A stretch of DNA of 64,000 nucleotides from Naegleria gruberi (GCA_000004985.1 GG738925.1), one strand, 5' to 3'. Counted from the first letter of the stretch, positions 1 through 58,177 are shown. A program made the numbers and translations. Notes: generated by a model from the letters alone, not told the origin.

Positions 1-320
1 CTCAAACCCAAACCCAAACCCAAACCCAAACCCAACCCAAACCCAAACCCAAACCCAAACCCAAACCCAAACCCAAACCCAAACCCAAACCCAAACCCAA
101 ACCCAAACCCAAACCCAAACCCAAACCCAAACCCAAACCCAAACCCAAACCCAAACCCAAACCCAAACCCAAACCCAAACCCAAACCCAAACCCAAACCC
201 AAACCCAAACCCAAACCCAAACCCAAACCCAAACCCAAACCCAAACCCAAACCCAAACCCAAACCCAAACCCAAACCCAAACCCAAACCCAAACCCAAAC
301 CCAAACCCAAACCCAAACCC
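1..320. repeat. Telomeric repeat array (CCCAAA)n on the + strand, i.e. (TTTGGG)n G-strand; C-rich strand runs 5'->3' inward from the left edge, as expected for a left chromosome terminus
   Basis: About 53 perfect tandem hexamers from base 1. One CCCAA 5-mer variant near base 30 and a ctcaaa start. The array ends abruptly at ~320 into unique AT-rich sequence. The tool ORF 2..340 (GLGLGL...) is a translation artefact of this repeat. Confidence 0.9.
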
Positions 321-1059
321 ACGACTAAGGTCAGACCCAATATTTTGACTTTTATTCATCTTAATTAATTATCTCAATAAATACTCATTATAAATCAATA
401 TATTATATATCAATATACTCCAAATTGAATATATAATCATATTATAACATAATATTACATCATTATAATGACTTATATAAGTTAATTTCATATAATAGAT
501 TAGACAATTAGGATATCAATGAATACATTTCAAATTCAATTCAAATCAATATATCACATTATTAATCATGTTAACAACAATATATATCAATTTCAAATAC
601 TTTGGTATCATTTCAGGATATTTACTATTCAACTTGTCAACTGACCTATTCTAACATTGAAGGTAGAAATATATACCACTCCAATTCACTTCCAATACAT
701 ATATACATGATAATGAAATATATTAATATCATTTTGACATTCATCCATATTATACATGTTACATGGCTGATCCACTTGATACCTACAGGGATGTGACAAT
801 GACATCTACTATACAGATCATTATGAAATTGATACAGTACCTTACTAATGGTGAATAAACACAACTGTATCAGTTTCATGACAATTTGATATCATTCAAC
901 ATGTCAGGAGTGTAATCATGGGAATAATGAATATCAAGATAATCAAATCATATTAATTTTGAAATCTTTCAATTATAGCATCATATATAGATCAATTAAT
1001 CATAGTATTTCAATAATTGGTATTGACTTTCATATTAATTCATTCAAACCTTAATGACC

Positions 1060-4000: not shown

Positions 4001-4971
4001 NNNNNNNNNNNNNNNNNNNNNNNNNNNNNNNNNNNNNNNNNNNNNNNNNNNNNNNNNNNNNNNNNNNNNNNNNNNNNNNNNNNNNNNNNNNNNNNNNNNN
4101 NNNNNNNNNNNNNNNNNNNNNNNNNNNNNNNNNNNNNNNNNNNNNNNNNNNNNNNNNNNNNNNNNNNNNNNNNNNNNNNNNNNNNNNNNNNNNNNNNNNN
4201 NNNNNNNNNNNNNNNNNNNNNNNNNNNNNNNNNNNNNNNNNNNNNNNNNNNNNNNNNNNNNNNNNNNNNNNNNNNNNNNNNNNNNNNNNNNNNNNNNNNN
4301 NNNNNNNNNNNNNNNNNNNNNNNNNNNNNNNNNNNNNNNNNNNNNNNNNNNNNNNNNNNNNNNNNNNNNNNNNNNNNNNNNNNNNNNNNNNNNNNNNNNN
4401 NNNNNNNNNNNNNNNNNNNNNNNNNNNNNNNNNNNNNNNNNNNNNNNNNNNNNNNNNNNNNNNNNNNNNNNNNNNNNNNNNNNNNNNNNNNNNNNNNNNN
4501 NNNNNNNNNNNNNNNNNNNNNNNNNNNNNNNNNNNNNNNNNNNNNNNNNNNNNNNNNNNNNNNNNNNNNNNNNNNNNNNNNNNNNNNNNNNNNNNNNNNN
4601 NNNNNNNNNNNNNNNNNNNNNNNNNNNNNNNNNNNNNNNNNNNNNNNNNNNNNNNNNNNNNNNNNNNNNNNNNNNNNNNNNNNNNNNNNNNNNNNNNNNN
4701 NNNNNNNNNNNNNNNNNNNNNNNNNNNNNNNNNNNNNNNNNNNNNNNNNNNNNNNNNNNNNNNNNNNNNNNNNNNNNNNNNNNNNNNNNNNNNNNNNNNN
4801 NNNNNNNNNNNNNNNNNNNNNNNNNNNNNNNNNNNNNNNNNNNNNNNNNNNNNNNNNNNNNNNNNNNNNNNNNNNNNNNNNNNNNNNNNNNNNNNNNNNN
4901 NNNNNNNNNNNNNNNNNNNNNNNNNNNNNNNNNNNNNNNNNNNNNNNNNNNNNNNNNNNNNNNNNNNNNNN
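1060..4971. other. Assembly gap (run of N, ~3.9 kb) in the subtelomere
   Basis: Continuous n characters. Tool ORFs 1017..4976 and 1054..5004 are artefacts of translating N. Confidence 0.99.
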
Positions 4972-5144
4972 GATAGACTATTACTTTTTTTAAAACTTTA
5001 CTAAAAAAACCAACAAAATACCCAAACGGCGCTTAATAACCCTATATCAGATCATAAAGACCATGGAGCCACAGAAGAAACAAATCAAAACAACACGTTT
5101 CCAAACCCAACCAAGTTAATAGCACAAAGAACGATGACTTCAAG

Positions 5145-6029
5145 ATGCCAAAGGTTGGAGGAGGATTCAAAAAACCACCTAACAAGTCTGGATTACCAGC
5201 AACAACAACAGTACCAGAGGACAACAAGTTTTTTGTTGAATTATTTGACGGTTTTATTGAAAAAAACAAATCGGATATTGTGGCAAAGATTGAGGAAGAG
5301 ATTGAAACTTTCAAGAAGAAGAAAGATGAATTGAAAAATATTATTGTAAAGAAGGAAAAGGGAGTGGATGATGAAGAACTGGACTTTTCAGAGAGTGAGG
5401 ATGAATCATCTGTCCAAATTATTGCGGAATACCATGCGGAAAAGAAGAATATCAATGAAGAATGCAAGAAGAATAAGAAGTTGAAAAACATCTCTCCTGT
5501 GGCAGAAAGGCAAGATGCTAAAATTGATGAAATTGGTAAACAGCTTGCCAAAGAAACAAAGAAAAGGAAGCGAGTGGATGAAGATTTTGTATGTGAGCCA
5601 CCAATTCTATCTGCAGCTGATGCATTGGATCCATCTAACATTTTGAATGAAAATGTTGACTCCCTCTTGAATGAGTTTTGTGATTTAGTTGATGCTGACT
5701 TGACAAAGTTAGATATTGGCATGACACAATCAAGCAATTTCCTTCGTTCAGTTGAAGATCGTGTCAAACAAGCAACTCAGCAATTGGATTCCCAAATCAT
5801 TGAATTAGAAAAATCGAGAGAGGAGATACTCAAAGAATTCGATAACAAATTGGAAGCTTTGAAATTCTCCAAGACTCAAACAGTTGGACCATATCTAGAA
5901 ATGGTTGAAACAAGCAAAAAGGTACTTGAAAAACAAACAACAAATTGCAAATTAAAAGCCCAAAAAGCATCAGCCAAAATCAAAGACAGAGTGCAAAGAT
6001 TCCTTGAGGATCCAATAAATGACCAATAA
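5145..6029 (+). CDS. Hypothetical K/E-rich coiled-coil protein (294 aa)
   Basis: Uninterrupted ORF with charged, coiled-coil-like composition. The antisense ORF 5042..5767 is low-complexity S/F mirror sequence and is rejected. No recognisable catalytic motif. Confidence 0.5.
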   Translation: MPKVGGGFKKPPNKSGLPATTTVPEDNKFFVELFDGFIEKNKSDIVAKIEEEIETFKKKKDELKNIIVKKEKGVDDEELDFSESEDESSVQIIAEYHAEKKNINEECKKNKKLKNISPVAERQDAKIDEIGKQLAKETKKRKRVDEDFVCEPPILSAADALDPSNILNENVDSLLNEFCDLVDADLTKLDIGMTQSSNFLRSVEDRVKQATQQLDSQIIELEKSREEILKEFDNKLEALKFSKTQTVGPYLEMVETSKKVLEKQTTNCKLKAQKASAKIKDRVQRFLEDPINDQ

Positions 6030-7714
6030 ATGCCCAATCAAATTGAATTTTTTTTAAATAATTGGCCAATTGAAAAAATGGCCAATCCAATCTCTGTCAT
6101 ACTTTACCGAAAAGCACAATAAGGTAATCAATAGGGAAGAATCTTATTTCCGAAATTAATTTTTACCATCATATCTAAATCATTGAATAATGAATTATTG
6201 ATACAGGAATCATATGTTCAATTGTTATATTCATGTCAGTAATCAGTGAAGGTGACACTTCTCAAACCTAAGCATCAACATTTCAATATCTAGACTGTCA
6301 ATTTCACTGAAACTTGAAATACTACCTGTTTATATGATATAATGATGACTCTTCATAGTAACATGCATGTGAAAACATATATTGACACTTTTCATCTTGT
6401 TATATTTATAGAGATGGTATCCAACAGAGTCAGTTCATAATATTAAATATAGAAACTCATTCTGTATGACATGTTTGATGTATAGAATTGTTTTTATATT
6501 GATGGAAATCAGTTTGAAATAATACGATGAAATTGACACGGTCTAGTCACCATTACATGACAAATTGACCATAGTTTACATTCCATCTCAGTCATTTCAG
6601 CGATTTATTGGTTAATTCCACCATTATATTTCTCATACATTGTAGTACAGTTTATATTTGAAGAGTGATTTCTGTGTAGATTATTATAATCGTAATACCA
6701 TTCAATACCAATAAAACTCAATAGAAGAGTCAATTCTTCTCATTTTCAAATAGATTATTCAATATAGAACACATCTAGATAGTTTCCAGATCATAAAAGT
6801 CAAGATACTATATATGGTCTTTGATTAATTTTAAAAATAGACTGCCGTTAATTACTGGAATATTAATTCAAAGCTTGATGATCAAGCTATTGATTGAAAT
6901 CAAACCGATTATTGAATATTGATCATTGAATTGGTGAACAATCACTCTCTTGATAATGCTACATATTTCATATTGCATGCAAATCAACCTGATTCAATCT
7001 ACAAAGGTTGGTAGTTGCACCACTTCGTGGCGAAACTACCCATCCACGATGAATCAACATGTGATTCACTTCCATTCAACTCAATTTGACCGTTATAATC
7101 AATAAATCAATGAAATGTTACTTTATTAGCAATACCTATTCAATCTAATGAGTAGATTCACGTCCCAAACATTTGACTTCTCAAAGTCCAGAATTCAAAA
7201 GTTAGTTCTGACCTGACCTTTAAATATCTATCAATATAAGAAATGAAACCATCAAATTTACATCATTAATAGATGATAAGAAATATAATCAATGATATGA
7301 ATCTTCACTAAGTAATCTCTTAAATAACCCAAATAAATCAACTCTGAATCCTAACCAACCTCTAGGATTTGAGTATGATCAATCTATTTTCCATCCCTAG
7401 TCATCCAATGGTATTCTCTTGAGTTTTTAGGCATTTATTGAGTAATCCATGTTTTCTCAAGTAGAATTGTATAAAATTAAATATTCAATCTCATATAAGG
7501 ATATAGAACACTGTTTGAATGCTTTGATTTCGTTTCTGAGTAGAGTGTTATCGATCAATGTCCTTCGCATCAATAACAAGTGTTATGGTTCTTTAATACA
7601 TAGATTACCAGAAAATCAACTAGTTCAGTTCGTCCTCAATCATTTGGAACTTGATTCTAAGCCAGTGTGTGAAATTACATTAGATTAAACTGTTGGCTTG
7701 TCCATTTATCACTT

Positions 7715-12192: not shown

Positions 12193-12338
12193 TTTTGAAT
12201 AAATATAATTTCTAACTTTACTGTAGATTGTTACAAAATATGTTAAGACTAAATTGGGAATTCCCTTCTCTAAATTCTTCACCATCATGTCACTTGTTAA
12301 AAACATCAATCAAACAAATCAAAAAAAATCACACAACA

Positions 12339-15122
12339 ATGCGAAGCAAACTAGAGAGTGATTCTGAACCGAAAACAACATCATCCAACAACACTACCAA
12401 TGGTACCCAAGAAGCAGAAGAACAACAGTTTGATTATGTCGAGAAGGAAATTGACGAAGATTTAATTTGTTCCATTTGTTTACTTCCTTTCGTTGATCCA
12501 ATTTCACATAATTCTGATGCATGTGGAAATACTTTCTGTTTGAAATGTGTTGAAAAGGTTTCGGATTGTCCAATGTGTAGAGAGGTTGATTTTAAGAAGA
12601 ATTGTTCTAGTGCTAAAACTATTGCCAAATTGTTGGACAAATTGAAGGTCAAGTGTGGAATGTGTAAGAACATTGTGTTGAGAGGTGAATTAAAAGTACA
12701 TCAGGAAAAGTATTGTCCTCTTCATGAAGCTTATCAACAAGTGGAAGAATTCAAGAAGAAATTGGAACAAGAATTCCAACAAAAGTCAGAAAAACTTCAA
12801 AGAGAACATGAAGAATTGATAGAAATTGTCAAAGCTGAGATGGAACAACATTTGAGAGAGGCTAAAGAGAATTTGGCAAAACTTGAAGAAAATCTTTTAC
12901 AACAATTCAAAAAGAAGGAAGAATTGTTGGAAAGTAACATGAAGGAACGTGAAAGTAGAATATTGACAAGAGAAAAACTTGAGAATAGCAACAAACCAAT
13001 TCATATAAATGTCAGAGGAACAATCATGACAGTTTCATTGGGTGATTTCATTCATAATGAAAGAGAATCTGATAATTTATTCAAGAAAATGTTCACAGGT
13101 CAACATCCATGTTATCAAACACCTTCCAAGCAATTTGATGACTCAATTTATTTCATTGATTGTGATCCAAATGTTTTCAAACATATGATTGAATGGTTAC
13201 AATATGGTGAGATTGCTGAATTGAGTAATGATATGAGACGATCAGTTTTAAATGCCTGTAAAAAGTTTGGATTGACAAATATGTCAAACGACTTATCAGA
13301 AAGTATTAACAAAGAAAGTAATTCAAAACAAATCATGCCAATGTCACAATTTGACTTTATGAACATTGTTAATCTTACCAGAAGTCAAAAGAGTGCTTTG
13401 AATTTGAGTGGCCTCGATTTACGTAAATTGGTTATTAACAATACAAATTTAGAAAAATCAGAAATTATTGGATCTGATTTCAGTGGAATGAATTTGAAAC
13501 AAACCAATTTCAAAGGAAGTAATTTGAGAGGATGTAATTTCAGTAATTGTGATTTGACAAGTGTAAACTTACAAGAGTGTGAATTAGATGATTGTAATTT
13601 CTCAAATGCAATTTTGGGTAAAACTAATTTTTCCAAATCAAGCTTGTTGAATATCAATTTATCAAATGCCATTTATAAGGAAACAAAGTTTATTGGAGCT
13701 AAATTTGAGAATGTTACAGGCTTCCAAAATAGAAAGCTCGGTTCATTAGATTTCTCCAATTCATCTTTCAAATCAATTGAGTTTTGCAATTCAGATTTGT
13801 CAAATTCAAACTTTACCAATTGTAATGCAATTGATTGTAACTTGGAAAGTACCATCTTGCGCAAAACAAACTTTGAAAAATCACAATTCGATAATTGTAG
13901 ATTCAATAACAAGTGTAAATTTGAAGAAACCAGTTTTAAAAATAGTTCCATGAAGAATGTTAGTGGTTTAATTGGAATTGATTTGGTTAGAGTTGACTTG
14001 TCCAACTGTAAATTAACCAAAACAGATTTTACAGTTTCTTATATTTTTGAAACTAATTTTCTTAATTGTAACTTTTGTATGGAAGTATTGAGATCCAAAC
14101 ACAATATTATTTCTAATTGTGATCTTTCAGGATTATTTTTAAATGGAGATTTTACAGGATTCAAATTTGAAAATGTTAAATTTACAAATACAAATATTGA
14201 GAAATCGAAGTTTGAAAATTCAACATTTGTAAAATGTAAAATTCAAATGAACTTTAAAAAGGACTCTTTACAACATTGTAATGTTATTGAATGTGATTTT
14301 AATGGCTCAATATTCGAAGAAATTGATTTTACTCTAATCCAAGCCAATTTAGAAACCAACTCTTTTAATAATTGTGTTTTTAAGAATGCAGATTTGAGAG
14401 AATTGAAAGATTTATCAAAATTCCTAGGATCTACATTTGATGCATGTTTATTTAATTTTAAAGAATTTACAAACAAACACATTCAAAAAATTCATTTCCA
14501 AAATATTAACTTACAGGATTTAGGAGGATTTAAATTTTCTGCCATTACTGTGGATATTCCTTGGTTTAATTTATTATCTTCCTCTGTTATTGTTAATAGT
14601 TGTGATATTGCAATTGGCTGTGAATTATATTCAAACACTAAAAGTAAATCAATTCCTCAATTATTATACAGAGGATCGAGAGATGGATTCAAAGCAGAAC
14701 ATTTTCATTCAAAATGTGATAATCAAGGTCCAACATTAACAATTATCAAATCAGAACACAATCAAATATTTGGCGGTTTCACATCAAAATCTTGGAGATC
14801 CCGAAGTGGAGAATGTGTCACAGATTCATCAGCATTTATTTTCAAAATTACAGATTCAAACGGAAGTTATCAATTCGAACACTTCAAAATCCAACGAGAG
14901 GAAAATGCCATTCTGGTAAACCAGTATTATTTGGCATTGTTTGGTGCTGACATTCAGATTGAGAGTGATTGTAATTTGAATTACAGGTCACGTTCAAACT
15001 TGGGCAGTTATTATGAATTACCAAAAGGTTACCAAAAGGGAAGTAATGAAGCAAATAATTACTTGGCAGGAAGTTACTACTTCAAGGTTTCAGAAATTGA
15101 AGTTTTTAAAATTAACCAATAA
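12339..15122 (+). CDS. Multidomain protein: degenerate RING + TRAF-type zinc finger + coiled coil + BTB/T1 (KCTD-like) + pentapeptide repeats + C-terminal TLDc domain (KCTD9-like architecture with extra domains)
   Basis: CSICLLPF..CGNTFCLKC..CPMCR is RING-like. VKCGMCKNIVLRGELKVHQEKYCP is a zf-TRAF-like C-x2-C..H..C pattern. IHINVRGTIMTVSLGDFIH..YFIDCDPNVFKHMIEWLQYG is a T1-type BTB. A long run of A(D/N)LxX pentapeptide repeats follows (NLRGCNFSNCDLTSVNLQECELDDCNFSNAIL...). The C-terminus LLYRGSRDGFKAEHFHSKCDNQGPTLTIIKSEHNQIFGGFTSKSWRS...SAFIFKI matches the TLDc signature. Start chosen at the ATG with a caacaATG context (12339); the tool ORF opens at 12228. Antisense ORFs 13385..14020 mirror the repeats and are rejected. 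Confidence 0.75.
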   Translation: MRSKLESDSEPKTTSSNNTTNGTQEAEEQQFDYVEKEIDEDLICSICLLPFVDPISHNSDACGNTFCLKCVEKVSDCPMCREVDFKKNCSSAKTIAKLLDKLKVKCGMCKNIVLRGELKVHQEKYCPLHEAYQQVEEFKKKLEQEFQQKSEKLQREHEELIEIVKAEMEQHLREAKENLAKLEENLLQQFKKKEELLESNMKERESRILTREKLENSNKPIHINVRGTIMTVSLGDFIHNERESDNLFKKMFTGQHPCYQTPSKQFDDSIYFIDCDPNVFKHMIEWLQYGEIAELSNDMRRSVLNACKKFGLTNMSNDLSESINKESNSKQIMPMSQFDFMNIVNLTRSQKSALNLSGLDLRKLVINNTNLEKSEIIGSDFSGMNLKQTNFKGSNLRGCNFSNCDLTSVNLQECELDDCNFSNAILGKTNFSKSSLLNINLSNAIYKETKFIGAKFENVTGFQNRKLGSLDFSNSSFKSIEFCNSDLSNSNFTNCNAIDCNLESTILRKTNFEKSQFDNCRFNNKCKFEETSFKNSSMKNVSGLIGIDLVRVDLSNCKLTKTDFTVSYIFETNFLNCNFCMEVLRSKHNIISNCDLSGLFLNGDFTGFKFENVKFTNTNIEKSKFENSTFVKCKIQMNFKKDSLQHCNVIECDFNGSIFEEIDFTLIQANLETNSFNNCVFKNADLRELKDLSKFLGSTFDACLFNFKEFTNKHIQKIHFQNINLQDLGGFKFSAITVDIPWFNLLSSSVIVNSCDIAIGCELYSNTKSKSIPQLLYRGSRDGFKAEHFHSKCDNQGPTLTIIKSEHNQIFGGFTSKSWRSRSGECVTDSSAFIFKITDSNGSYQFEHFKIQREENAILVNQYYLALFGADIQIESDCNLNYRSRSNLGSYYELPKGYQKGSNEANNYLAGSYYFKVSEIEVFKINQ

Positions 15123-15251: not shown

Positions 15252-17702
15252 TTACAATTGTTGTTCATTGACCTTTTCAATGGTGCTCAAAATATGTTTT
15301 CCGTAAGGTAACTTTTTGATCTTTTCTTGATGTGGTTTCACAGCCTCAGTAATTGTCTTTCTTTGACTGGCATCACAAGTTTCAATAATCTTTTGAATGA
15401 CATAGTTTGCAAATTGATCTTTCATCATTGCAAAGAGTGGAGTCTCTGAAATATCTCTTGATGTGATATCTCCAATGAGTTCAGTGATCATATTGTCACG
15501 TTCCTTCTTATTGGCTTGTTGGAAACATTTTTCAATAACATTGGAAGCAAACTTATTGATTGACAATTCTTGAATCTTCTTACTCAAGGCTGCAATAATC
15601 AATGACTTGAAAGTTGGTTTACCACGATCGAGAACATGTTGGACAACATAATTTCCGTATGGATCGACAACCAAAGCCAAAATATTGTCTAAAATTTCTT
15701 GCAAAATTGGGACTGTTTGACCTTCTGTACAATGTTCCAAAATACGTTGGATGACACGGCAGCCATAATTATGGATAGCTTGTTCATAAACTTTTCCTTT
15801 GAATCCATCGACAATGAATTGAATAATCTTTGGTGGTACACGTTCAATACACTTTTGAATGACGTGATTACCATTTTGATCTTGTACACACCTCATTACA
15901 TTACCCTTTAATTCACTAACAACAGTATCCTTATCATCATTATCAATAACTTCCAATGCCTTTTGAATAACTCTACAACCATAGGTTTGCAAGGTCAAGT
16001 TCAAGACATTTCCTTGTAATTCCTTTGAGAGTTTCTTCTTTTGAGGAGCATTACCAAATTCAAAGAATTTTTGGATAACATAATTACCAAACACGTCAGT
16101 CATTAATGATAAGGCATATGGTTGAATTTCCTTAAAGATTAATTCCTTTTCACTATTTGAAGCCTTTTCTAACTTTTGTTGGATGAATCTGGAACCATGT
16201 TGATCTCTTGAGAATTCCACAACATGACCAACAATATCATGAAGTTCAAACTTGCGGCCAGATCTTCCATTCTTGAATTCATCCATGAGAGGTGACATTT
16301 GAGTTTGTTGTTCACTACGTTCTGAAGTTGTATTTTGATGATTCTTTGATTTTCTTGAATGGTTATCATGTGATGCAGAGTTTCTATCACCTCTTCCTGA
16401 CTTATTGCCTCCATTAGAGTTTGGAGCCGAATTAGAGTTACTATTTACTGGTTGATTATTAACATTACCACCAGAGGTTGGTGAAGTATTAGCATTATTA
16501 ACAAGACCTCCGACCTTTTGAATATTTTGAGGAGGATAATGGTGTGATTGTGGATATTGATTTTGATGGAATTGATTAGCATATGGAACATTATTAGAGA
16601 CCATTTGTTGTTCAACCGGTATATGTGAACCTTGAGGTTGAACCATAAAAGGTTGAACATAATATGGTGGAACACCAAAATATGGTGGTGCGTTTTGAGG
16701 AGGTATTTGATTTCTCATATTATTTGGAGCATTTGTATACATTCCATCCCTCATTACTACTACCTTATTATAGTTTTGATAATATTCCATTTGTTGTTGT
16801 TGTCCATTAAACATCATTGGAGGATAATCAGCAGAACCCATCCATTGTTGTTGTTGTTGCTGATTCAAATTAACATGTTGGAATTGTTCTTGTAATTGTT
16901 CTTCCTCTTGATCCAAATCAGCGTTTTGATGATAACCGTGTTGTGGATAAGGAACCTTCCTTACATTATTTCCAATCATTTCATTGTTAGATTCATAGTA
17001 ACCTCCTCTTCCAGCTTTCTTTGGTTGAGGTTGTTGAATCTTTGGATAATGATGATGAGAGGTGGAAGACTCTTGTGGAAGAACTTGTTGAGCACCATTT
17101 GAAGTTGTGTTAAACATGACTGCTGTATCCTTATTCATTTGATTGAAGACTGGAGAAGGTGTTCTTGGAAAATCTTGTTGAATTTGATCCAAAACTGATC
17201 TTGGTTTACTCTTCTTTTCTTCACCAACAGCTCCAGGTGAGCTTGGAGGTTGAGTCTCATCCTTTCTCCAACTAGTAGTAAGAATTGGAGGTGGAAGTCT
17301 TGGATTAAGATTCTTGTGTGAATAGTAATAATCATAATATTGAGGATTAGAACGAATATAGAGCTCATTAGCATTTGTGTTTGTTGGTGTATTTGGTTGT
17401 TCATCGAGTGTTTCTTGTGGAGGAGCCGAACTACTTCTATTCATATATGAACCGTGTAATTCTGCGCCACTTGTAACAATAGATGTTAATTTCTTAATAA
17501 TAGGCGGTCTAATAGAATTACCATTGTTACCATTATTATTATTGTTATTGCCGGCAACACTTGGTGAATTATTCATAGGAAGTGAATTGTTATCCGATGA
17601 TATTCCCATGTTGTTCATCTTGTTTTCAATGATAAATTGTCTGAGTTGAGAACCTTGGTTATTTGGTTTTCCGTAATTTATATTTTGTTGATGGTCAAAC
17701 AT
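15252..17702 (-). CDS. Pumilio-family (PUF) RNA-binding protein, 816 aa
   Basis: C-terminal eight PUF repeats with canonical cores: [84 protein letters not shown]. The N-terminal two-thirds is N/Q/P-rich low complexity ([17 protein letters not shown]). Confidence 0.9.
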
Positions 17703-22951: not shown

Positions 22952-25900
22952 ATGACGATGAATAACATCAGACGAAATCATCATCATTACTACAGCAGTC
23001 AATATTGTTGGTGGAGAGAATCATCTCTGACTGTCATCTTTATACTGCTGCTGTCGAGTCTTGTACTGTTGAATGGACCAAGCACTCTCATCACTGCACA
23101 AAGACCTGGGCCATTCAATCCGAATAATCCGAGTGGACCTCCATCTCCTAATTTTCAAGATGATTCTACTCAACCACAAGGAATTTGTGCAAATGGCTCA
23201 ACAACATGGGATCAGGATATTTGTACGGAAACTAGTGAATTGTCGTCTCTTTCGATAAGACCTAGCTATTGTAAGAATATTAATCCCTATGTGATTCCGT
23301 ATCCTTTCAGTGATCATGAGTTTAGTGTCAAGTTGAGTCCTGATTGTTATGATTACAAAACTGGATTGAATTCAAATGATATTGAGAGAGCTGAGTGTGA
23401 AACAGTTAAATCAATCAGTTCTGTGGAGTTTGGACCTTTTGTTTTGCCTGATTTGAATGTTACAAGTAAGAGATTTTCATTGTTTGGAATGAATACTGGT
23501 GAAATCTATGCAATGGATTTTAACACGAATGAACTTTTCCAATTTGAAAATCAAACCAGTGACCCAATTAAGAAATTGGATGCCTTTGTGTTGGGATTGA
23601 ACAATACTGCAGCTTATATCATCTCTTCGGATGGTCAACACTCTTTAAAAGTTCTCTATTTTAACTATCTCAATAGAGAAACAAGTGCTCTATGTGAAAA
23701 AATTACCTATAACGAAAGTGTTGTGGATTTTAAGAGTTTGAATGTTGATGGACAATTATACTTGGTTGCTCTGACATCTTCCTCATTGGAATCTTCGACC
23801 AAATATCTTAAATTCTCAAAAATGGATGAATATTGCAATATTGTGATGAATGAATTTACTTATTCTATTCAACCTCCAAAAGGAAGCTCTAAAATTTCAT
23901 TTGACATTTTCACACAAGCTATCAACAATACTGCTTCCTATTCTCCTTCTATTTATACTAGATCTTCATCTATTCCAACCAGAAATATCATCTCTGTACA
24001 AACAGAACAATCAGTTTCAGTTATCAATTTTGTCACTAAAGATTTGAATCTTGACTTGCATAGTAATTCAACATCACCATACTTGGTTTTTACAACCAAT
24101 GCTGGCAGTGGTCAACACATTACCAGTAGTTCTTTCATCACAGAAGAATTGAGAAGAATTGATTTTGCTACCAATTCTTCAACAAGTTGTTCACTTTCTG
24201 AGGGAGAATTGAGATTCCCTTCACAAGAAGTTCACTTACTTGTTACTTTATTTGATGGAACAAACTCAACATTAATCGTTAGAAATTTACCTGAATTTTC
24301 AGCATTTACTCTCAAGAATTTATCTGATATGCTAACTAATGAACATCCATTCAATAGAGATTTTGCGTGTGATATTGCTGCTGGATATTACCAATCTGGA
24401 CCTAATACTTGTGTTTTGGCCAATGAATATAGTATTCCTTTGGAAGCAAAAGCTACTCAAGTTCACTCAAGATTCATTGATATTCCTGAACTTATTAAGG
24501 AGTATTTGGCTCAAGTTACAACAGAAAGCTCCAAGAATACAGAGCAGTTCAGAACAGCTGTTAACTTGTTGTGTATTGTTAGTGCTGGAGGTGATCCTAT
24601 GAATCCAAACAGACCATTCGATCCAAATAGATATATGGCCTGTGTACAAGCTTTGACAACAAGTATGGGAAGTGTCACTTGTCAAGCACAAGCATTTGGA
24701 GCTTTAGGAACTGAAAATCTCAGACAATTGATGAACGATTATTTGCAGTACAACGTTTTCATCACTATGGAGAATAATGCCTTGTTAGTTTTGGGAGTTC
24801 AACAAAGATTTTGTGATCCACTCTCAAAAGAACTTATCATTAAGCCTTTCAACAAGTTGCAACTCATTGGCAGAGCCATTAACACATACATTTCTGGCAA
24901 TGGTCAACATATCTTCATATCCATAACAAGGAAAAAATGGGAAATTGAATCATTAGCTAGATACAAGGAAATTTGTGATATGTTGGAAGAAGACCCAGAT
25001 AATATCTTCCTCAAAGATTATAGAACTTCGTGCATCAAAAATCCAGCCAAACCAATCAATATTAATACCTTTGGTTTCTACCTGTCAAGTTGCTTCCCTG
25101 GCATTTATTGTCCATCTTTGACAAAGAATGAATTGCAAGCAGTTCCTGACAAGTTTTACACTGAGAGACCAAATACACTCCTTCCATGTCCTATTGGCAG
25201 CTTTTGTACATTGGGTTTCAAGAGAGATTGTATCACTGGCTTTGTTTGTGATAAACCAATGATGGTTCTTCCAAAACCATGTACAGATAACGATTACAAT
25301 TGTTATGCTAGTGGATTGGCTGCTCCTTTTGCTCCTTCCAAGGGAACAGTAACTTTGGCTCCTTATTTCCCTACTCTTCCGATTGCTCCTGGATTGTACA
25401 TTGAGAGACATAGTGAAATTGATTTGGATATTAGAAAGTGCAGTGTTGGAGATTATTGTCCTTTAGCAAGAGCTCTTGATGTTCCAACATTTGGAACTGA
25501 GAATGTCAGTATTTTGGACTGTCCTGCTGGTACAGTCTGTTCAGATCCCTTTGTTATTACACCAAAAACTTGTTTTTACAATGGATCATACAGCAGCTAT
25601 TGTCCAACAGGAACTTCTGAAGAATTGCCTTGTCCAGCTGGACATTACTGTCTAGGACCTTCATCTATTAAGGAATGCAGAAGAACTCAGTACTGCCCTG
25701 CTGGTACTCTGATTCCAACTGCTTGTCCTGGTGGCTACTATTGTTCAACTCCTTCTGAAAAATTGATTTGTCCAAAAGGTCATTATTGTCCAGAAGGAAC
25801 TGTAATGCCTCATCCTTGTGGTTGGTTGTCTTTGTGTGGCGAAGGAAAATCCAATGTTGACTTTAATATTCTTGGTTTCTTCTTTGTTTTCATTTGTTTA

Positions 25901-28241
25901 ATGTTAGTTGTTGGTATTCACTCGCTCATTAAATATGTCAGATCTGTTAGTAATAAGAAACGTGATTTGGAACATCAAGAAGCTGCCATGTTGGAAATGA
26001 AGGAAATGTCAGGTGACAATACCAATTCTAAAGATGTAAGATCTGCCTATGCCTCCAAGAACTTGAGACAATCTTACGGAGATAGCAAATTTGGTGTCAA
26101 TATTGCTTTTGAGGACTTGTGTTTAACCATTGAACAATCTGGAAAGACAACTAACATTTTGAGTGGTGTCAGAGGAGAAATTAGAAACTCTGAATTGTTA
26201 GCAGTTATGGGTTGTTCAGGTTCTGGTAAGACCTCTTTCATCACATCTCTTTGTGGTAAAGCATACTATGGTAATGTAACTGGTACCATCAAACTGAATG
26301 GAAATGAAGCCAGTTTGACAAAGTTTAGAAAGTTGACTGGATTTGTGCCACAATTAGATATCATGCAAAGTCAAATGACTGTTTATGAAACATTGTACTT
26401 TGCTGCTCGAACTAGATTGGATAAGAGAAAGACCAATGAGCAAGTAGACAAATTTGTGTCAAGTTTAATTTCCATTCTTGGATTGGATGATGTCAAACAC
26501 TCTATTATTGGTGATGAAAAGAAGAGAGGTATATCAGGAGGTCAAAAGAAGAGAGTGAATATTGGTCTTGAACTTGCAGCAGCTCCTAGTGTTTTATTTT
26601 GTAAGTATTTTGTTTCTTCCTTTCTTAAATTTGAATCTTTAATAATATAACAGTGGATGAACCAACTAGTGGATGTAAGTATTTAACAATGCTATTTGAC
26701 AGTTTTTCTAATTGTAATTACAGTGGACGCTTCTACATCAAGAGAAATTATTGAAATTCTTAGAAATGTTGCTGTTAATCAACACATTACAGTTGTAACA
26801 GTTATCCATCAACCTAGATATGAAATATTTGCCATGTTCCACAAGGTCATGTTGCTAGGAAAGGGAGGCAGAGTTGTCTATTGTGGTCCAAGCATTAAAG
26901 CTGTGGAATATTTTGAGAGTATTGGATTCAAATCTCTTCCAAATGCTAATCCTGCTGATTATATTATGGATGTTATTTCTGGAAATATTGAAAGAGAAGG
27001 TGATCCTGATTTTAAGGTTGAAGATTTGTTTACCATGTGGGAAGATCACAGACATTTGTATGAAGAAGATTCCGCATTGCTTTCACCATCAAGTGCTACC
27101 TCTCCAATTATTGAGAGGGAAGATGCTGATTCTGTGGAAAATTCTGAATTAAGCGGACCTACCAGTGTTGATTGTTCCTATGAAGTATTTAAGAAGGAGA
27201 ATGACAATAGAAAGATCAGTTACTTTACTCAATTCATGATGTGTTTGAAGAGATGTCTCTTCCAACTCACTAGAGACACTTCTGGATTTGTTTTGGATGT
27301 TGGTTTGGTTTACTTGGCAGGTCTCAGTATTGGTGTTATTTTCTATGAAAGTAGATATATTGGACCACCAGCAACCGAAGTGATTGATCAATGTCCTGAA
27401 GTAATGAGATACAAATGTTCCCTTCCAGTTAATGATCCAATCATGACTATGGCATCTATTCTTGGCTTAGGTTTGGCACTTTGTGGATTGATGAGCTCGC
27501 TGAGTAATTTTGGAGATGAAATCACAGTATTTATCAGAGAGTACGAAAGTAATATATCTCCAATGATGTACTTCTTGGCAAAGAATCTGATTCAAATTCC
27601 AATCATTATGATTACACCAGCAATCTTCATTTCCATCTTTTATATTATCAGTAACCCTCAAGGAGAGGTTTGGCAATAGTAAGTAACATTCAAATAGTAA
27701 TATGAACAACTTTAACAAATCAATTAATAGCTATGTTATTTTGATGAGTACAAACTTTGTGAGTTATGGAATTGGTTATCTATTATCACTAATCTTCCCT
27801 GCTTCATTAAGTAAGGTGGCTGGAGTAGTGTTTGTTGTGATTAATTATCTAGTTTCAGGTATTAGACCAACAATGAGTGAAATGGATGACATGTTCTTCC
27901 CAATGCCTTACATTTATTCCCTCTCCTTTTTGAGATATTCTACAGAAGCTCTCTATTTGACAGAAGTGAAGAAATATTCTCAAGTGTATGATGTAAATTC
28001 AGGTTTAGATTTAATGGGCTATGCCTTCAAGAATTTCCCTCGAATGGCCATAACTATTCCACTATTTGGTATCATCTATAGAATTTTAGCTTGTATTGCT
28101 CTTTTAATATTGCCTCCTTCATCACTAGTGAGACGAGTTGTAGGAAAGGTCATTGATTACAAGTCTCACATTGCCAAGATCAAGAAACTGATTGTCAGGA
28201 AAAAGCAACGTGATCATGAACAATTGAGCATTAATTATTGA
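22952..28241 (+). CDS. ABCG-type half transporter with ~930-aa N-terminal Cys-rich ectodomain; 4 exons: 22952..26600, 26654..26674, 26724..27678, 27731..28241 (1711 aa)
   Basis: Signal peptide LTVIFILLLSSLVLLNGPSTLITAQ. The membrane-proximal ectodomain carries repeated CP(A/T/K/G)G..YC motifs (CPAGTVC, CPTGTSEELPCPAGHYC, CPAGTLIPTACPGGYYC, CPKGHYCPEGTVMPHPC) of GCC2/GCC3 (ephrin-receptor-like) type. TM ILGFFFVFICLMLVVGIH. NBD with Walker A GCSGSGKTS, signature ISGGQKKRVNIG and Walker B VLF|LDEPTSG|LD. The Walker B/D-loop heptapeptide lies on a 21-nt micro-exon between introns of 53 and 49 nt (GTAAGT..ACAG/TACAG). The TMD carries about six TM segments after a third 52-nt intron. All junctions checked for phase against the tool ORFs. 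Confidence 0.8.
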
Positions 28242-28622: not shown

Positions 28623-28710
28623 TTTTTTAAAATTAATTTTTATTGTAAATTTTTAAAAATATTTGCCGCCAAACTGAATGAACTTTGAAAAACTCAACCA
28701 AAAAAAAATG

Positions 28711-29814
28711 TTGGATTTGTATGAAGTTTTTCCGTTCGTGATGGATTTGGGGTCATCATCAATAAAGGCTAGTTTGGTGAATAATGAATGCGTTCCGAGA
28801 TGTGATGTGATGAATGGTGTGATGAAGAATGATAAACCTAGATATAAATTTGATAGTATGAAAGGCTTGTTGGTGGAAGATGTAATTGAAAGGCCGATGA
28901 AAGAGGGAGAAATTGTTGATTGGTTTTTGATGGATTCAGTGTTGGGGGATACTTTCTATAAGGAATGCAGAACTGAGGTTGCTGAATATCCAATGGCTAT
29001 TTCTGTTTCTTCATATTTTGGATTGAAAGATAGGTATAAATTGGCAGAAATATTATACGAAACTTATTGTAGCCCTTCTGTGATGTTTGTAAATCAGGGT
29101 AGAGCTTCTTTGAGGAGATATGCCAGAACTGGTGTTGATGTTAGCATTGGAGCAGGTGTTGCCTGTGTTTTACCTGTGGTGGATGGAAAAATAATTAAGG
29201 AAAATATCAAAAAGTTAAATGTAAATGGAAATGATTTAACAAATTATCTTGGGCAATTAATTGCCAAAAAGGGAATTTCAACTGGTACTGAACTGGATCC
29301 AAAGTATTGTGAAGGTGTAAGGAATATTGATACCATCAAGGCAAAGTGTTTCCTTCTAGATGAATATATTGAAGAAAGCACAACACCAGAGCAATCTTTC
29401 ACTTTTGATGACTGCACTATTTCCCTTGGAAAGGAACTGTATCAAGCTCCAGAACCTCTATTCCAACCTCATTTGATTGGTAAGGATTGCCCAGGATTGG
29501 CTGAAGTTATTCATTCATGCATTAGCTCTTGTGAAGTGGATACTAGAGAACAATTGTATCAGAATATTGTCTTTTCAGGTGCTTCTTCTCTCTTTAAAAA
29601 TTTGGCTCAAAGATTAAAGAAGGAGTTAGGCGAGCTTGCCCCAAATAATTACAAAATTGGTGTTACAGCCCCTCCAGAAAGCAAGTATAGCGTATGGATG
29701 GGTACATGCGCTGAAGCTGAAAGCTTTTACAACCACGACAAGTGGGTCACCCGTGAAATGTATGAAGAACAAGGTGAGGCAATAACTTCAAAATTCTCCA
29801 CCACTATTTGTTAA
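28711..29814 (+). CDS. Divergent actin-related protein (Arp), ~367 aa
   Basis: N-terminal VMDLGSSSIKA corresponds to the actin phosphate-1 loop (DNGSGxxKxG). C-terminal KYSVWMGTCAEAESFYNHDKWVTREMYEEQGEAI corresponds to actin KYSVWIGGSIL...WISKQEYDE. Start taken at the ATG in caaaaaaaaATG context (28711) inside the tool ORF 28678..29814. Confidence 0.65.
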   Translation: MDLYEVFPFVMDLGSSSIKASLVNNECVPRCDVMNGVMKNDKPRYKFDSMKGLLVEDVIERPMKEGEIVDWFLMDSVLGDTFYKECRTEVAEYPMAISVSSYFGLKDRYKLAEILYETYCSPSVMFVNQGRASLRRYARTGVDVSIGAGVACVLPVVDGKIIKENIKKLNVNGNDLTNYLGQLIAKKGISTGTELDPKYCEGVRNIDTIKAKCFLLDEYIEESTTPEQSFTFDDCTISLGKELYQAPEPLFQPHLIGKDCPGLAEVIHSCISSCEVDTREQLYQNIVFSGASSLFKNLAQRLKKELGELAPNNYKIGVTAPPESKYSVWMGTCAEAESFYNHDKWVTREMYEEQGEAITSKFSTTIC

Positions 29815-57200: not shown

Positions 57201-58177
57201 ATTATCTTGATTTGAATGTTATCAAATCATACAAGTATCCTCCAAGCTTTATCTTTGAAACTTTGGAAAAGACACGCAATATTGTATCTATTATTAATTT
57301 AAAGACAGAAGAACCTTCAAAGCCACTGACAGCAATGACTTGGAGACAAAAACATGAGCAAAGAAGAAAGGCAAGAAAAGAATTCAGAAGAAACGAAAGT
57401 GTTAAATTTGATAGTAGATTGAAAAATAATAGTACAGATATCAAAATGGAAAGAGATCCAGATTGGAAACCTCACTTTATTTATTCTTTGAATGATATTG
57501 ATACTATTCTCAATAGTGAAAAGTTTGATTCCAGACTCTCCAAGAAACTTCAATTCCTTACAGTTGATCCAGGAACTCAGAAAATTGGTTCCTTCCATCC
57601 TAAGGATATTAACTTTTATAGAGATGCCTATCAACCAATTCCATTCACAAAATTGCCAGTTTTAAAGGAAATTAAGGCAAGAAGTATTTGGTTCAAGGCA
57701 ATGACTGAACAACCTCCACAACAAGTTCTTGACGAAAGAGAAAAACAAAAAAAGGAAAATCCAAACAAATACGGTTATTATGGCCACCATAAGGATTACA
57801 CTAAGGATCCATTCGAAGAAAGATATCAACAATTCTCAATGTCTAGACCAAATCCAAGTCCAACAACCAGATATGACAAGTGGATTCAAGAAGAAATTTG
57901 GTTTGAAACATTCACACCAGAAGAAAGCAACAAGATTGAACAAGAGTTTAGAAAGTTTATTGTTTATGGAAATCCTGAAAGTTTTGCAATTTCACCTTCT
58001 GAAATTATTGATTTCTCATATTGGAAACTATTCCACGATAGTAATCATCCAACCAATCCAAATAGTGTTATTACCTTGCATAGAAAGAGCTTTTACGAAT
58101 ATCGTGACTATCGTAATGATGACAGAGAAGAGGAAGTTGTTGGCATTGCAACACTTTCCTACAGGTCTTTCTATTAA
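54253..58177 (+). CDS. Large protein with two T1/KCTD-type BTB domains and a long C-terminal region of unknown function; 2 exons (54253..54553, 54621..58177; ~1285 aa)
   Basis: Exon 1 ends ..LKVG|G at G|GTATGT. A 67-nt intron ends atgatgacag, and exon 2 continues GKFFYTTMK in phase. BTB-like blocks SSLEYVCAQDNLFKVMFDSGFG..FPDRNPDYFEYILEHLRQGG and KIDISGQIFTIPFTSLRKYENFLLSKY..VFIDRNPKLFALIHGYIISGG. The C-terminal ~700 aa include the conserved-looking block VTFYCYKLRPIQVVLRIYKSPAEVLLGFDIDCATMGFDGNQVW, not assigned. Confidence 0.6.

What the first reader, a model, noticed from the sequence alone, without database searches (positions are those of the whole stretch)
22952..28241. ABCG half-transporter fused to a ~930-aa ectodomain with GCC2/GCC3 Cys-rich repeats, and a 21-nt micro-exon for the Walker B motif
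Canonical ABCG half-transporters start with the cytosolic NBD. Here a signal peptide and a very large extracellular region with membrane-proximal CPxG..YC repeats precede an extra TM helix, then the NBD and TMD. This suggests a receptor-like ABC protein. The heptapeptide LDEPTSG is encoded by a 21-nt exon flanked by 53- and 49-nt introns, which gene predictors readily miss.
Basis: partly seen in the sequence, partly recalled or inferred. Interest (0 to 1): 0.65.

Follow-up and report, generated by a model that had tools for sequence, protein, structure and literature searches.

The report
Long-ectodomain ABCG28-type transporter, mis-annotated
This is a real Naegleria gruberi gene for an ABCG half-transporter of the widespread but little-studied ABCG24/28/WBC30 type, which carries an outside-facing domain ahead of an extra membrane helix; here that domain is unusually large, and the public gene model wrongly drops the 21-base exon that encodes the ATPase catalytic motif.

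Summary
Window 22952-28241(+) is one four-exon gene of 1,711 aa. Its three GTAAGT..AG introns are 53, 49 and 52 nt. A 21-nt micro-exon (26654-26674) encodes LDEPTSG, the Walker B motif. The window is Naegleria gruberi.

The public model (1,534 aa) skips the micro-exon and stops at the third intron. The micro-exon is conserved, with synonymous changes only, in two other Naegleria genomes, while the flanking introns have diverged.

The interpretation needs correction. The Cys-rich ectodomain plus extra helix is not a novel fusion. It is shared by most close relatives, which sources name ABCG24, ABCG28-like or WBC30 (Acrasis, cnidarians, chytrids, green algae). Forms with 700-1,400-aa ectodomains also occur in Willaertia, Anaeramoeba, Barthelona and Rigifila.

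Pfam GCC2_GCC3 is not matched. A predicted model places the Cys region in the growth-factor-receptor Cys-rich rod class, with the best match to mastigoneme MST1. Upstream of it lie a seven-bladed beta-propeller and a neck module.

A receptor role is untested. Verdict: real, worth an annotation fix, moderately interesting, a variant of a known kind.

The parts
22952..26600 (+). Exon 1 (aa 1-1216 plus 1 nt). It encodes the signal-like segment, the whole ectodomain, TM0, the linker and the NBD up to the residue before Walker B, in one uninterrupted ORF.
   Evidence: Translation; ORF list.
22952..23098 (+). N-terminal signal peptide or signal anchor (aa 1-49). Basic n-region (R7, R8, R22), hydrophobic core aa 24-42, possible cleavage after ITA49.
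   Evidence: Hydropathy peak 2.05 at aa 24-42. Inferred only; no signal-peptide predictor was available.
23384..24481 (+). Predicted seven-bladed beta-propeller (about aa 145-510). Among named sequences it is found only in Heterolobosea.
24488..25051 (+). Neck module (about aa 513-700): four helices, a five-stranded sheet and two helices. The conserved motif NGQH..(R/K)xxW(E/Q)..S..RY..IC..L..DPD..FL lies at aa about 600-705.
   Evidence: AF2 models. Alignment A2. About 100 library proteins match only this part, many of them 1,400-2,000-aa ABCGs.
25067..25855 (+). Cys-rich rod (aa 706-968; 24 Cys; eight C-x2-G-x2-C motifs, regular 15-16-aa spacing in aa 884-962).
   Evidence: pLDDT above 90. 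Collinear with Acrasis 'ABCG24' aa 129-378, iE 8.5e-61, and with many clade members. Six invariant Cys across 31 sequences. Best fold match is the MST1 Cys-rich domain 9b4h_A, E 2.3e-7.
25862..25930 (+). Extra transmembrane helix TM0 (aa 971-993), followed by a basic cytosolic flank with 5 K/R in 19 aa.
   Evidence: Hydropathy 2.72. A TM sits a median of 110 aa upstream of Walker A in relatives.
26162..26833 (+). Nucleotide-binding domain (aa 1071 to about 1260), interrupted by introns 1 and 2. Walker A 26210-26236, Q-loop 26339-26359, signature ISGGQKKR 26531-26554, Walker B plus D-loop 26591-26728, H-loop 26801-26815.
   Evidence: Pfam PF00005, E 3.1e-21. PDB ABCG hits at 1e-40 to 1e-66. Motif mapping.
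26601..26653 (+). Intron 1 (53 nt, GTAAGT..CAG, phase 1).
   Evidence: The same position holds introns of 106 nt and 80 nt in two other Naegleria genomes.
26654..26674 (+). 21-nt micro-exon encoding (L)DEPTSG(L): Walker B Asp1218 and catalytic Glu1219.
   Evidence: Conserved in L001 and L002 at 86-95% identity with third-position synonymous changes only, against 45-54% for the flanking introns. FLDEPTSGLD is nearly invariant in 31 relatives.
26675..26723 (+). Intron 2 (49 nt, GTAAGT..CAG, phase 1).
26724..27678 (+). Exon 3: the rest of the NBD, the linker, and TM1 to about TM3.
27679..27730 (+). Intron 3 (52 nt). The public model reads into it and stops at TAG.
   Evidence: The position is conserved in L001 (113 nt) and L002 (147 nt).
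27731..28241 (+). Exon 4: the last TM helices, the extracellular loop, the C-terminal tail and stop TGA (28239-28241). Absent from the public model.
   Evidence: Matches the C-terminus of the N. lovaniensis orthologue. PF19055 best stretch is aa 1474-1668.
27227..28109 (+). ABCG-type transmembrane domain (aa 1392-1668), spanning intron 3.
   Evidence: PF01061 E 3.6e-15 and PF19055 E 9.5e-41. Hydropathy peaks.

Best explanation
Window 22952-28241(+) is one Naegleria gruberi gene encoding a 1,711-aa ABCG half-transporter of the ABCG24/ABCG28/WBC30 type.

Shown:
- The order is a signal-like segment, a roughly 920-aa ectodomain, one extra TM helix (TM0), a roughly 95-aa linker, an NBD with all catalytic motifs, and an ABCG TMD.
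- The ectodomain, TM0 and most of the NBD lie in a single exon.
- Walker B and the catalytic Glu lie on a 21-nt exon that is conserved in the genus.
- The public model omits that exon and the last exon.

Inferred:
- The N-terminal segment directs the ectodomain across the ER membrane. TM0, with a basic flank on its C-side, returns the chain to the cytosol. The NBD-TMD core therefore keeps the usual ABCG orientation, and the ectodomain faces outside or into a vesicle lumen, disulfide-bonded (40 Cys) and N-glycosylated.
- Like other half-size ABCGs, two chains pair to form an ATP-driven exporter or floppase.
- The rigid growth-factor-receptor-type Cys rod stands next to the substrate exit. It probably helps the two halves pair, as such rods do in MST1 and in growth-factor receptors.
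- The rod holds a neck module and a seven-bladed beta-propeller about 10 nm or more above the membrane. The propeller would act as a binding module for an acceptor, a ligand or a surface partner.
- The substrate is unknown.
For: Gene model and motifs.

Species: 100% identity to 'predicted protein [Naegleria gruberi]'.

ABCG identity:
- Pfam PF00005, PF01061 and PF19055.
- PDB hits to Cdr1, AtABCG25, ABCG2, ABCG1 and ABCG5/8 at 1e-38 to 6e-66.

Clade:
- The best named relatives are 'ABCG24' of Acrasis kona (606 bits, 47% identity) and 'ABCG28-like', 'ABCG24-like' and 'white-brown complex homolog protein 30' in cnidarians, Andalucia and others.
- 82 of 106 relatives have a TM upstream of the NBD. 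68 have an ectodomain, and 64 of those have at least 8 Cys.
- The Cys region is collinear across the clade.

Single gene:
- There is no stop codon or intron between the ectodomain and the NBD.
- The N. lovaniensis orthologue has the same layout (1,772 aa).
- A Trinity transcript ORF from Rigifila ramosa (1,575 aa) spans a neck-bearing ectodomain plus the ABCG core.

Micro-exon:
- Conserved with synonymous-only changes in three Naegleria genomes, while the introns differ in length (53/106/80 and 49/88/79 nt) and sequence.
- Without it the protein lacks Asp1218 and Glu1219.

Folds. The MST1 Cys-rich domain is described as growth-factor-receptor type and as mediating homodimers (PMC11015965).
Against: - No transcript or protein data for N. 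gruberi were available, so exon inclusion, the start codon and signal-peptide cleavage are inferred.
- Skipping the micro-exon keeps the reading frame, so an exon-skipped isoform cannot be excluded.
- The ectodomain folds rest on AlphaFold models built from only 31 sequences (mean pLDDT 72.8 and 84.0). Residues 50-117 and several loops score below 50.
- I could not retrieve the Arabidopsis ABCG24/28 sequences, so clade membership rests on names given by sources to close relatives, not on a direct comparison or a tree.
- Dimerisation through the rod, the binding role of the propeller and the transport direction are analogies, not tests.
Confidence: 0.85

Rival explanations
1. Receptor-like ABC. 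The propeller and rod bind an external ligand, and binding is transmitted through TM0 to gate the ATPase or transport, or to signal.
For: - A large, conserved, structured ectodomain is tethered by a single TM about 95-110 aa before Walker A throughout the clade.
- Extracellular seven-bladed propellers such as LGI1-EPTP and semaphorin are among the fold hits.
- Growth-factor-receptor-type rods occur in receptors.
Against: - No signalling domain is present (Pfam).
- The TM0-to-NBD linker is conserved only within Naegleria (third query).
- There are no functional data.
- The one relative whose localisation I could cite, AtABCG28, sits on secretory vesicles (PMC9195045). That fits a luminal domain better than a surface receptor.
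Confidence: 0.12
2. Two genes. An independent secreted or membrane-anchored Cys-rich protein lies upstream of a canonical ABCG whose transcript starts after the ectodomain.
For: - Gene callers split the homologous loci elsewhere. Willaertia ABK040_012079 (ectodomain, P0138) and ABK040_012080 (ABCG, P0018) carry adjacent locus tags. The same split is seen in L004 at 2375-4978 and 5001-7096.
- The Logan contig L002 is called as several ORFs.
Against: - In the window, the ectodomain, TM0 and 146 residues of NBD are one open frame with no stop or intron.
- A canonical ABCG has no need for TM0. A start after TM0 would still leave the conserved TM0-plus-Cys-rod unit unexplained in 64 or more relatives.
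- Single-ORF models or transcripts exist in N. lovaniensis, Acrasis, Anaeramoeba, Barthelona and Rigifila.
- The split models look like caller artefacts at short introns.
Confidence: 0.04
3. The public model is right, or partly right. The 21-nt exon is skipped constitutively or as a regulated isoform, giving an ATPase-dead ABCG that acts as a regulator or a dominant-negative partner.
For: - Both flanking introns are phase 1 and the exon is 21 nt, so skipping is in frame.
- The 123-nt span 26601-26723 also has GT..AG ends.
- The public model P0001 uses it that way.
Against: - The exon sequence is under clear coding constraint in three species, with only synonymous third-position changes, while the introns are 45-54% identical.
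- FLDEPTSGLD is nearly invariant in 31 relatives.
- The same public model also mis-terminates in intron 3, so it is not reliable.
- The N. lovaniensis annotation includes the exon.
Confidence: 0.06

Closest known systems
Plant ABCG24 / ABCG28 / WBC30 half-transporters and the proteins that NCBI or EukProt name after them in cnidarians, Andalucia, Acrasis and Anaeramoeba
   Same: - Reverse NBD-TMD core with PF00005, PF19055 and PF01061.
- A long N-terminal extension ending in one TM about 110 aa before Walker A, with many Cys and CPxG motifs.
- Maize ABCG24/28 homologues are 1,040-1,112 aa, against about 600-750 aa for most other half-size ABCGs in that table (PMC9409143 table).
   Different: - The Naegleria ectodomain is about 920 aa. 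The median is 179 aa and the maximum 587 aa among the 64 closest relatives with a Cys-rich ectodomain.
- It adds a beta-propeller and a neck module.
- The Arabidopsis sequences themselves could not be retrieved for direct comparison.
- AtABCG28 is reported on secretory vesicles of pollen tubes (PMC9195045). Nothing is known for Naegleria.
Acrasis kona 'ABCG24' (P0017, 1,068 aa), the closest named non-Naegleria relative
   Same: - 47% identity over 89% of the TM0-NBD-TMD part, E 3e-176.
[quoted passage not shown]
   Different: - No propeller.
- The Walker B region is uninterrupted in the genome, so there is no micro-exon (L003).
Giant-ectodomain ABCGs of other protists: Willaertia magna P0139 (1,546 aa), Anaeramoeba flamelloides 'abc transporter g family member 28' P0168/P0269 (1,560-1,572 aa), Barthelona P0257 (1,391 aa), Rigifila ramosa P0214 (1,575 aa), and unnamed contigs up to 2,012 aa
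   Same: - Neck motif plus CPxG-rich region plus TM0, then Walker A at position 840-1,532, then five to six TMs.
- Willaertia matches the whole aa 50-705 profile.
   Different: - Outside Heterolobosea only the neck module (profile positions about 560-671) matches. Their N-terminal parts are different.
- No Pfam family covers any of these ectodomains.
Structurally solved ABCG half-transporters (human ABCG2, ABCG1, ABCG5/G8; Arabidopsis ABCG25, ABCG16)
   Same: NBD and TMD are homologous (E 1e-38 to 1e-52). All ATPase motifs are present. These transporters are obligate dimers (established knowledge).
   Different: They begin with a cytosolic NBD. A 2026 survey describes half-size ABCGs as having a cytoplasmic N-terminus and no N-terminal membrane association (PMC13257379). 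They have no signal peptide, ectodomain or TM0.
Growth-factor-receptor Cys-rich domain, as in Chlamydomonas mastigoneme MST1 (PDB 9b4h, 8wa2)
   Same: This is the best fold match of the aa 510-968 model: E 2.3e-7, 311 columns, 19% identity. It is a rod of disulfide-stapled hairpins, and in MST1 it mediates antiparallel homodimers (PMC11015965).
   Different: There is no detectable sequence similarity to any PDB chain. MST1 is a filament protein, not a transporter. The comparison uses a predicted model.
Pfam PF07699 GCC2_GCC3 / ephrin-receptor-like repeat
   Same: Short Cys-rich repeats containing C-P-x-G and an aromatic residue. There is a weak fold hit to Elapor1 (E 0.22), which to my recollection carries such repeats.
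   Different: There is no HMM hit at E<=10. The motif here is C-P-x-G-x-[YF]-C with 6/9-10 Cys spacing, not the C-x2-C-x2-G-x-Y pattern I recall for PF07699.

Membership tests
ABCG subfamily (half-size, WBC type) | NBD lies N-terminal to the TMD (reverse topology), with an ABC-2-type TMD. | tested here: met
   PF00005 at aa 1071-1222 precedes PF01061 at aa 1392-1618 and PF19055.
ABCG subfamily (half-size, WBC type) | Complete ATPase motifs: Walker A, Q-loop, signature, Walker B with catalytic Glu, D-loop and H-loop. | tested here: met
   GCSGSGKTS, VPQ, ISGGQKKR, VLFLDEPTSGLD and VIHQP are all present. This holds only if the micro-exon is spliced in.
ABCG subfamily (half-size, WBC type) | Sequence homology to solved ABCG transporters. 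| tested here: met
   Cdr1 5.9e-66, AtABCG25 1.7e-52, ABCG2 7.7e-50.
ABCG subfamily (half-size, WBC type) | Functions as a dimer and hydrolyses ATP to move a substrate. | not testable with these tools
   Needs biochemistry.
ABCG24/ABCG28/WBC30-type clade | The closest named relatives carry these names. | tested here: met
   Acrasis 'ABCG24' is the top hit. ABCG28-like, ABCG24-like and WBC30 names recur among the top 120. Anaeramoeba 'g family member 28'.
ABCG24/ABCG28/WBC30-type clade | An N-terminal extension with one TM about 100 aa upstream of Walker A. | tested here: met
   TM0 at aa 971-993 and Walker A at aa 1087, a distance of 116 aa. The clade median is 110 aa.
ABCG24/ABCG28/WBC30-type clade | A Cys-rich exoplasmic module homologous across the clade. 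| tested here: met
   phmmer with aa 706-968 hits more than 40 clade members collinearly. Six Cys are invariant across 31 sequences.
ABCG24/ABCG28/WBC30-type clade | Monophyly with Arabidopsis ABCG24/28/WBC30 in a tree. | not tested
Membership rests on source names of relatives.
Pfam PF07699 GCC2_GCC3 (ephrin-receptor-like) | HMM match at or above the gathering score. | tested here: not met
   No hit on the full protein at E<=1 or on aa 706-968 and aa 874-962 at E<=10. Absent from the precomputed Pfam lists of all 120 relatives.
Growth-factor-receptor Cys-rich domain class | A rod of disulfide-stapled beta-hairpins, structurally superimposable on known members. | tested here: met
   Foldseek to MST1 at E 2.3e-7, with weak TNFR (4-1BB) hits. 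The query is a predicted model (pLDDT above 90 in this part), and the disulfides are unverified.
Seven-bladed beta-propeller | Fold match to solved propellers. | tested here: met
Spliced micro-exon | Canonical splice sites, frame preservation and conservation in orthologues. | tested here: met
   AG|21 nt|GTAAGT in three Naegleria genomes. Exon 86-95% identical, introns 45-54%.
Spliced micro-exon | Junction reads in RNA. | not testable with these tools
   No RNA-seq access.
Cleaved signal peptide | n-, h- and c-regions with a (-3,-1) cleavage site. | tested here: inconclusive
   The h-region at aa 24-42 and ITA|Q at aa 49 are plausible. The n-region is long and no predictor was run. An uncleaved anchor would give the same exoplasmic placement.

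The most novel reading that the evidence does not exclude
The ectodomain is a functional receptor or acceptor module. Ligand or partner binding to the propeller, relayed through the dimerising Cys rod and TM0, would gate an ABCG exporter. That would make the ABCG24/28 clade an ancient class of ligand-coupled ABC transporters. The in-frame, skippable Walker B micro-exon of Naegleria could additionally provide an ATPase-dead isoform as a splice-level switch.
Probability: 0.1. Interest if true: 0.75.

Novelty: new variant of a known kind. Interest (0 to 1): 0.38.

Why it matters
Practical value: the reference N. gruberi protein (1,534 aa) lacks the Walker B Asp and catalytic Glu and the last TM helices, so it would be scored as a dead or odd ABC protein in any inventory. 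The corrected 1,711-aa model restores a complete transporter. It also shows how a 21-nt exon and short introns mislead predictors. Related loci in Willaertia are split into two gene models.

Biological value: it draws attention to a neglected, apparently ancient ABCG clade whose members place a disulfide-rich domain on the exoplasmic side through an extra TM helix.
- No Pfam family covers that domain.
- A recent survey of ABC architectures still describes half-size ABCGs as having a cytoplasmic N-terminus.
- The heterolobosean versions, with a propeller on a rigid stalk, are good candidates for asking what this ectodomain does. Possible roles are dimerisation, substrate hand-off as in ABCA ectodomains, sorting to vesicles, or sensing.

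Tried and rejected
- Fold search against afdb50 was unavailable, so no UniProt-level structural neighbours were obtained.
A direct search for an exact transcript-derived copy was therefore impossible.
- The ABCG28 paper (PMC6589667) is not held.

Searches that returned nothing useful:
- Literature searches for a description of the N-terminal ectodomain of ABCG24/28/WBC30, or of Naegleria ABC transporters, found nothing. The clade may be described in papers outside the library.
- PF07699 and all other Pfam families were negative for the ectodomain.
- A PDB sequence search with the Cys region was empty at E<=1.

Readings considered and rejected:
- A non-standard ciliate-type genetic code. Rejected because 1,216 codons are free of TAA and TAG, and the gene ends in TGA with a well-aligned C-terminus.
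- An ancient micro-exon. Rejected because Acrasis and a Willaertia relative have an uninterrupted Walker B.

Tool caveat:
- The ABCG-only word-index search did not return P0001 or P0002, which must match. That tool's recall is incomplete, so counts from it are lower bounds.

Full report
**1. What is in the sequence**

The window is AT-rich (about 35% GC). Position 22952 starts an ATG-initiated frame that stays open for 1,216 codons. Joining four exons gives a 5,136-nt CDS of 1,711 aa:
- Exon 1: 22952-26600
- Exon 2: 26654-26674
- Exon 3: 26724-27678
- Exon 4: 27731-28241

The three introns are 53, 49 and 52 nt, and each is GTAAGT...AG. The second exon is 21 nt. Together with the split codons on either side it encodes LDEPTSG, so the protein reads VLFLDEPTSGLDAS. 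This is a textbook Walker B plus D-loop.

**2. Species and existing annotation**

The protein is 100% identical to 'predicted protein [Naegleria gruberi]' (P0001). That public model has only 1,534 aa, for two reasons:
- It reads ...VLF|LDASTS..., treating 26601-26723 as one intron and losing the micro-exon.
- It ends at ...EVWQ, running into the TAG formed at the third intron and losing 170 C-terminal residues, which include the last TM helices.

The N. lovaniensis orthologue (P0002, 1,772 aa, 58% identity over 97% of the query) contains LDEPTSGLDSS and the full C-terminus.

**3. Is the micro-exon real?**

I fetched the orthologous loci of N. lovaniensis (L001) and of a third Naegleria-like genome from a Logan assembly (L002).
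- Both have AG|TGGATGA(A/G)CC(A/C)AC(T/C/A)AGTGGAT|GTAAGT at the same place. The flanking introns are 106/88 nt and 80/79 nt.
- The exon is 86-95% identical between species, with third-position synonymous changes only. The introns are 45-54% identical.
- Intron 3 is also conserved in position, at 113 and 147 nt.
- FLDEPTSGLD is nearly invariant in an alignment of 31 relatives.
- An ENA protein (P0027) reads through into the first of these introns at exactly this point.

In Acrasis kona 'ABCG24' (L003) and a Willaertia magna relative (L004) the Walker B region is uninterrupted. The pair of introns is therefore a Naegleria-lineage feature.

No RNA data could be consulted. Because the exon is 21 nt with phase-1 introns on both sides, skipping it would stay in frame. 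An exon-skipped isoform cannot be formally excluded.

**4. Domain content and topology**

- Pfam finds ABC_tran (aa 1071-1222), ABC2_membrane (aa 1392-1618) and ABC2_membrane_7.
- PDB sequence hits are Cdr1, AtABCG25, ABCG2, ABCG1 and ABCG5/8, at 6e-66 to 4e-38.
- All ATPase motifs are intact.
- Hydropathy gives an N-terminal hydrophobic core at aa 24-42. It also gives a very strong helix at aa 971-993, followed by KYVRSVSNKKR, and the TMD helices.
- Residues 50-965 hold 40 Cys and 12 N-x-S/T sequons.

The inferred topology is an exoplasmic ectodomain, with TM0 running out-to-in and a cytosolic NBD. An uncleaved N-terminal anchor would give the same placement.

**5. The ectodomain is not a novelty of this gene**

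I searched with TM0 plus the ABCG core.
- The best hits are Acrasis kona 'ABCG24' (606 bits), Willaertia, and many proteins that their sources name 'ABCG28-like', 'ABCG24-like' or 'white-brown complex homolog protein 30'. These come from cnidarians and Andalucia.
- Unnamed homologues occur in chytrids, zygomycetes, Capsaspora, Amoebozoa and Trebouxia.

Of the 106 hits with a recognisable Walker A:
- 82 have a TM upstream of the NBD.
- 68 have an ectodomain before that TM.
- 64 of those ectodomains hold at least 8 Cys.
- The median ectodomain is 179 aa (range 66-587), and the median TM0-to-Walker-A distance is 110 aa.

The query's Cys region (aa 706-968) aligns collinearly with these ectodomains, for example Acrasis aa 129-378 at iE 8.5e-61. 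Six Cys are invariant across 31 sequences.

The Cys-rich ectodomain plus extra TM is therefore a shared feature of a widespread clade. Maize homologues named ABCG24/28 are 1,040-1,112 aa (PMC9409143 table). AtABCG28 is cited as the one ABCG located on secretory vesicles (PMC9195045).

**6. What is special here**

I made a profile of aa 50-705 from the window, two Naegleria orthologues and three partial relatives (alignment A2). I searched it against 1.84 billion representative proteins. It found 133 proteins at E<=1e-3.
- Matches to the whole profile are Willaertia magna (P0139, 1,546 aa), an N. lovaniensis paralogue (P0143, 891 aa) and unnamed contigs.
- About 100 proteins match only profile positions about 560-671, which correspond to protein aa about 600-705.
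- Many of these are 1,400-2,012-aa proteins with Walker A at position 840-1,532 followed by five to six TMs. They include Anaeramoeba flamelloides 'abc transporter g family member 28', Barthelona sp. and a Rigifila ramosa Trinity ORF.

Giant-ectodomain ABCGs therefore exist in Discoba, Metamonada and CRuMs. The N-terminal roughly 500 aa of the Naegleria protein are, among named sequences, heterolobosean.

**7. Folds**

The AlphaFold2 model of aa 50-968 has pLDDT 72.8 and pTM 0.70.
- It shows a beta-rich domain at aa about 145-510.
- Foldseek agrees.

A second model, of aa 510-968, has pLDDT 84.
- It shows a neck of four helices, a five-stranded sheet and two helices, followed by a hairpin ladder with pLDDT above 90.
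- Its only significant PDB matches are the Chlamydomonas mastigoneme protein MST1 (9b4h_A, E 2.3e-7, 311 columns).
- Weak hits to TNFR 4-1BB and Elapor1 follow.

Pfam GCC2_GCC3 is not matched. No Pfam family covers the ectodomain in seven diverse relatives either. The repeat is C-P-x-G-x-[YF]-C with alternating 6 and 9-10 residue Cys spacing.

**8. Mechanism**

Shown: the protein has a complete ABCG NBD-TMD core preceded by TM0 and a structured, Cys-rich ectodomain.

Inferred from established ABCG biology:
- Two chains dimerise and export or flop a substrate using ATP.
- The ectodomains sit next to the extracellular exit.

Inferred by analogy with MST1 and growth-factor receptors:
- The rods contribute to pairing.
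- They hold the propellers away from the membrane as binding modules.

The substrate and the cellular location are unknown.

**9. Rivals**

Each is given with evidence in the rival list.
- A two-gene reading is contradicted by the single open exon and by clade-wide conservation of the TM0 unit.
- The exon-skipped public model is contradicted by coding constraint on the exon.
- A receptor role is neither supported nor excluded.

**10. Novelty and score**

The gene is already in databases, and the architecture belongs to a named clade. This is not categorically new. Three things are new:
- The corrected gene model.
- The evidence for a genus-specific Walker B micro-exon.
- A structural description (propeller, neck, growth-factor-receptor-type rod) of an ectodomain that Pfam does not model and that the literature I could search does not describe. 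A 2026 survey still states that half-size ABCGs have a cytoplasmic N-terminus (PMC13257379).

I rate it a new variant of a known kind, with interest 0.38.

Noticed in passing
window 1-320: About 53 tandem CCCAAA units (TTTGGG on the other strand) at the very start of the window. This is a telomere-like array, so the window begins at a scaffold or chromosome end. It is followed by 17%-GC unique sequence up to 1059.
   Followed up: no
window 1060-4971: An assembly gap: a run of 3,912 N. The long 'ORFs' listed at 1017-5004 are artefacts of this gap.
   Followed up: no
L004 2375-4978 and 5001-7096 (Willaertia magna); also locus tags ABK040_012079 / ABK040_012080: In Willaertia magna the ectodomain and the ABCG core of homologous genes are annotated as two adjacent genes only 22 nt apart. 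This is probably the same kind of gene-model error, caused by a short intron or frame issue, as in N. gruberi.
   Followed up: partly
P0143 (N. lovaniensis C9374_004976, 891 aa): A Naegleria paralogue matches the whole aa 50-705 ectodomain profile (E 6e-53) but has no ABC domain in its model. It is either an ectodomain-only paralogue or another truncated model.
   Followed up: no
P0115, P0116, P0119, P0124, P0108 (Trebouxia and unnamed contigs): Some members of the same ABCG clade carry EF-hand pairs (PF13499, PF13405). In P0115 the EF-hand lies at aa 585-643, downstream of the ABC_tran match and upstream of the TMD match. This hints at Ca2+ regulation in those lineages.
   Followed up: no
window 28678-29811 (+); L002 14660-15196: An actin-family gene (PF00022, E 5e-56) lies just downstream of the ABCG gene. 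It also lies downstream of the orthologue in the Logan Naegleria contig, so local synteny is conserved.
   Followed up: no
window 12228-15119 (+), 15255-17702 (-), 54611-58174 (+), 58251-59660 (-), 60442-61914 (-): Other long ORFs with Pfam hits: pentapeptide repeats fused to a TLDc domain, a Pumilio-repeat protein, a BTB_2 protein, an LRR protein and a phosphatidylserine synthase.
   Followed up: no
tool behaviour: The word-index homology search with the ABCG core did not list the N. gruberi (P0001) or N. lovaniensis (P0002) proteins, which must be the best matches. Its recall is incomplete, and absence from its lists is weak evidence.
   Followed up: no
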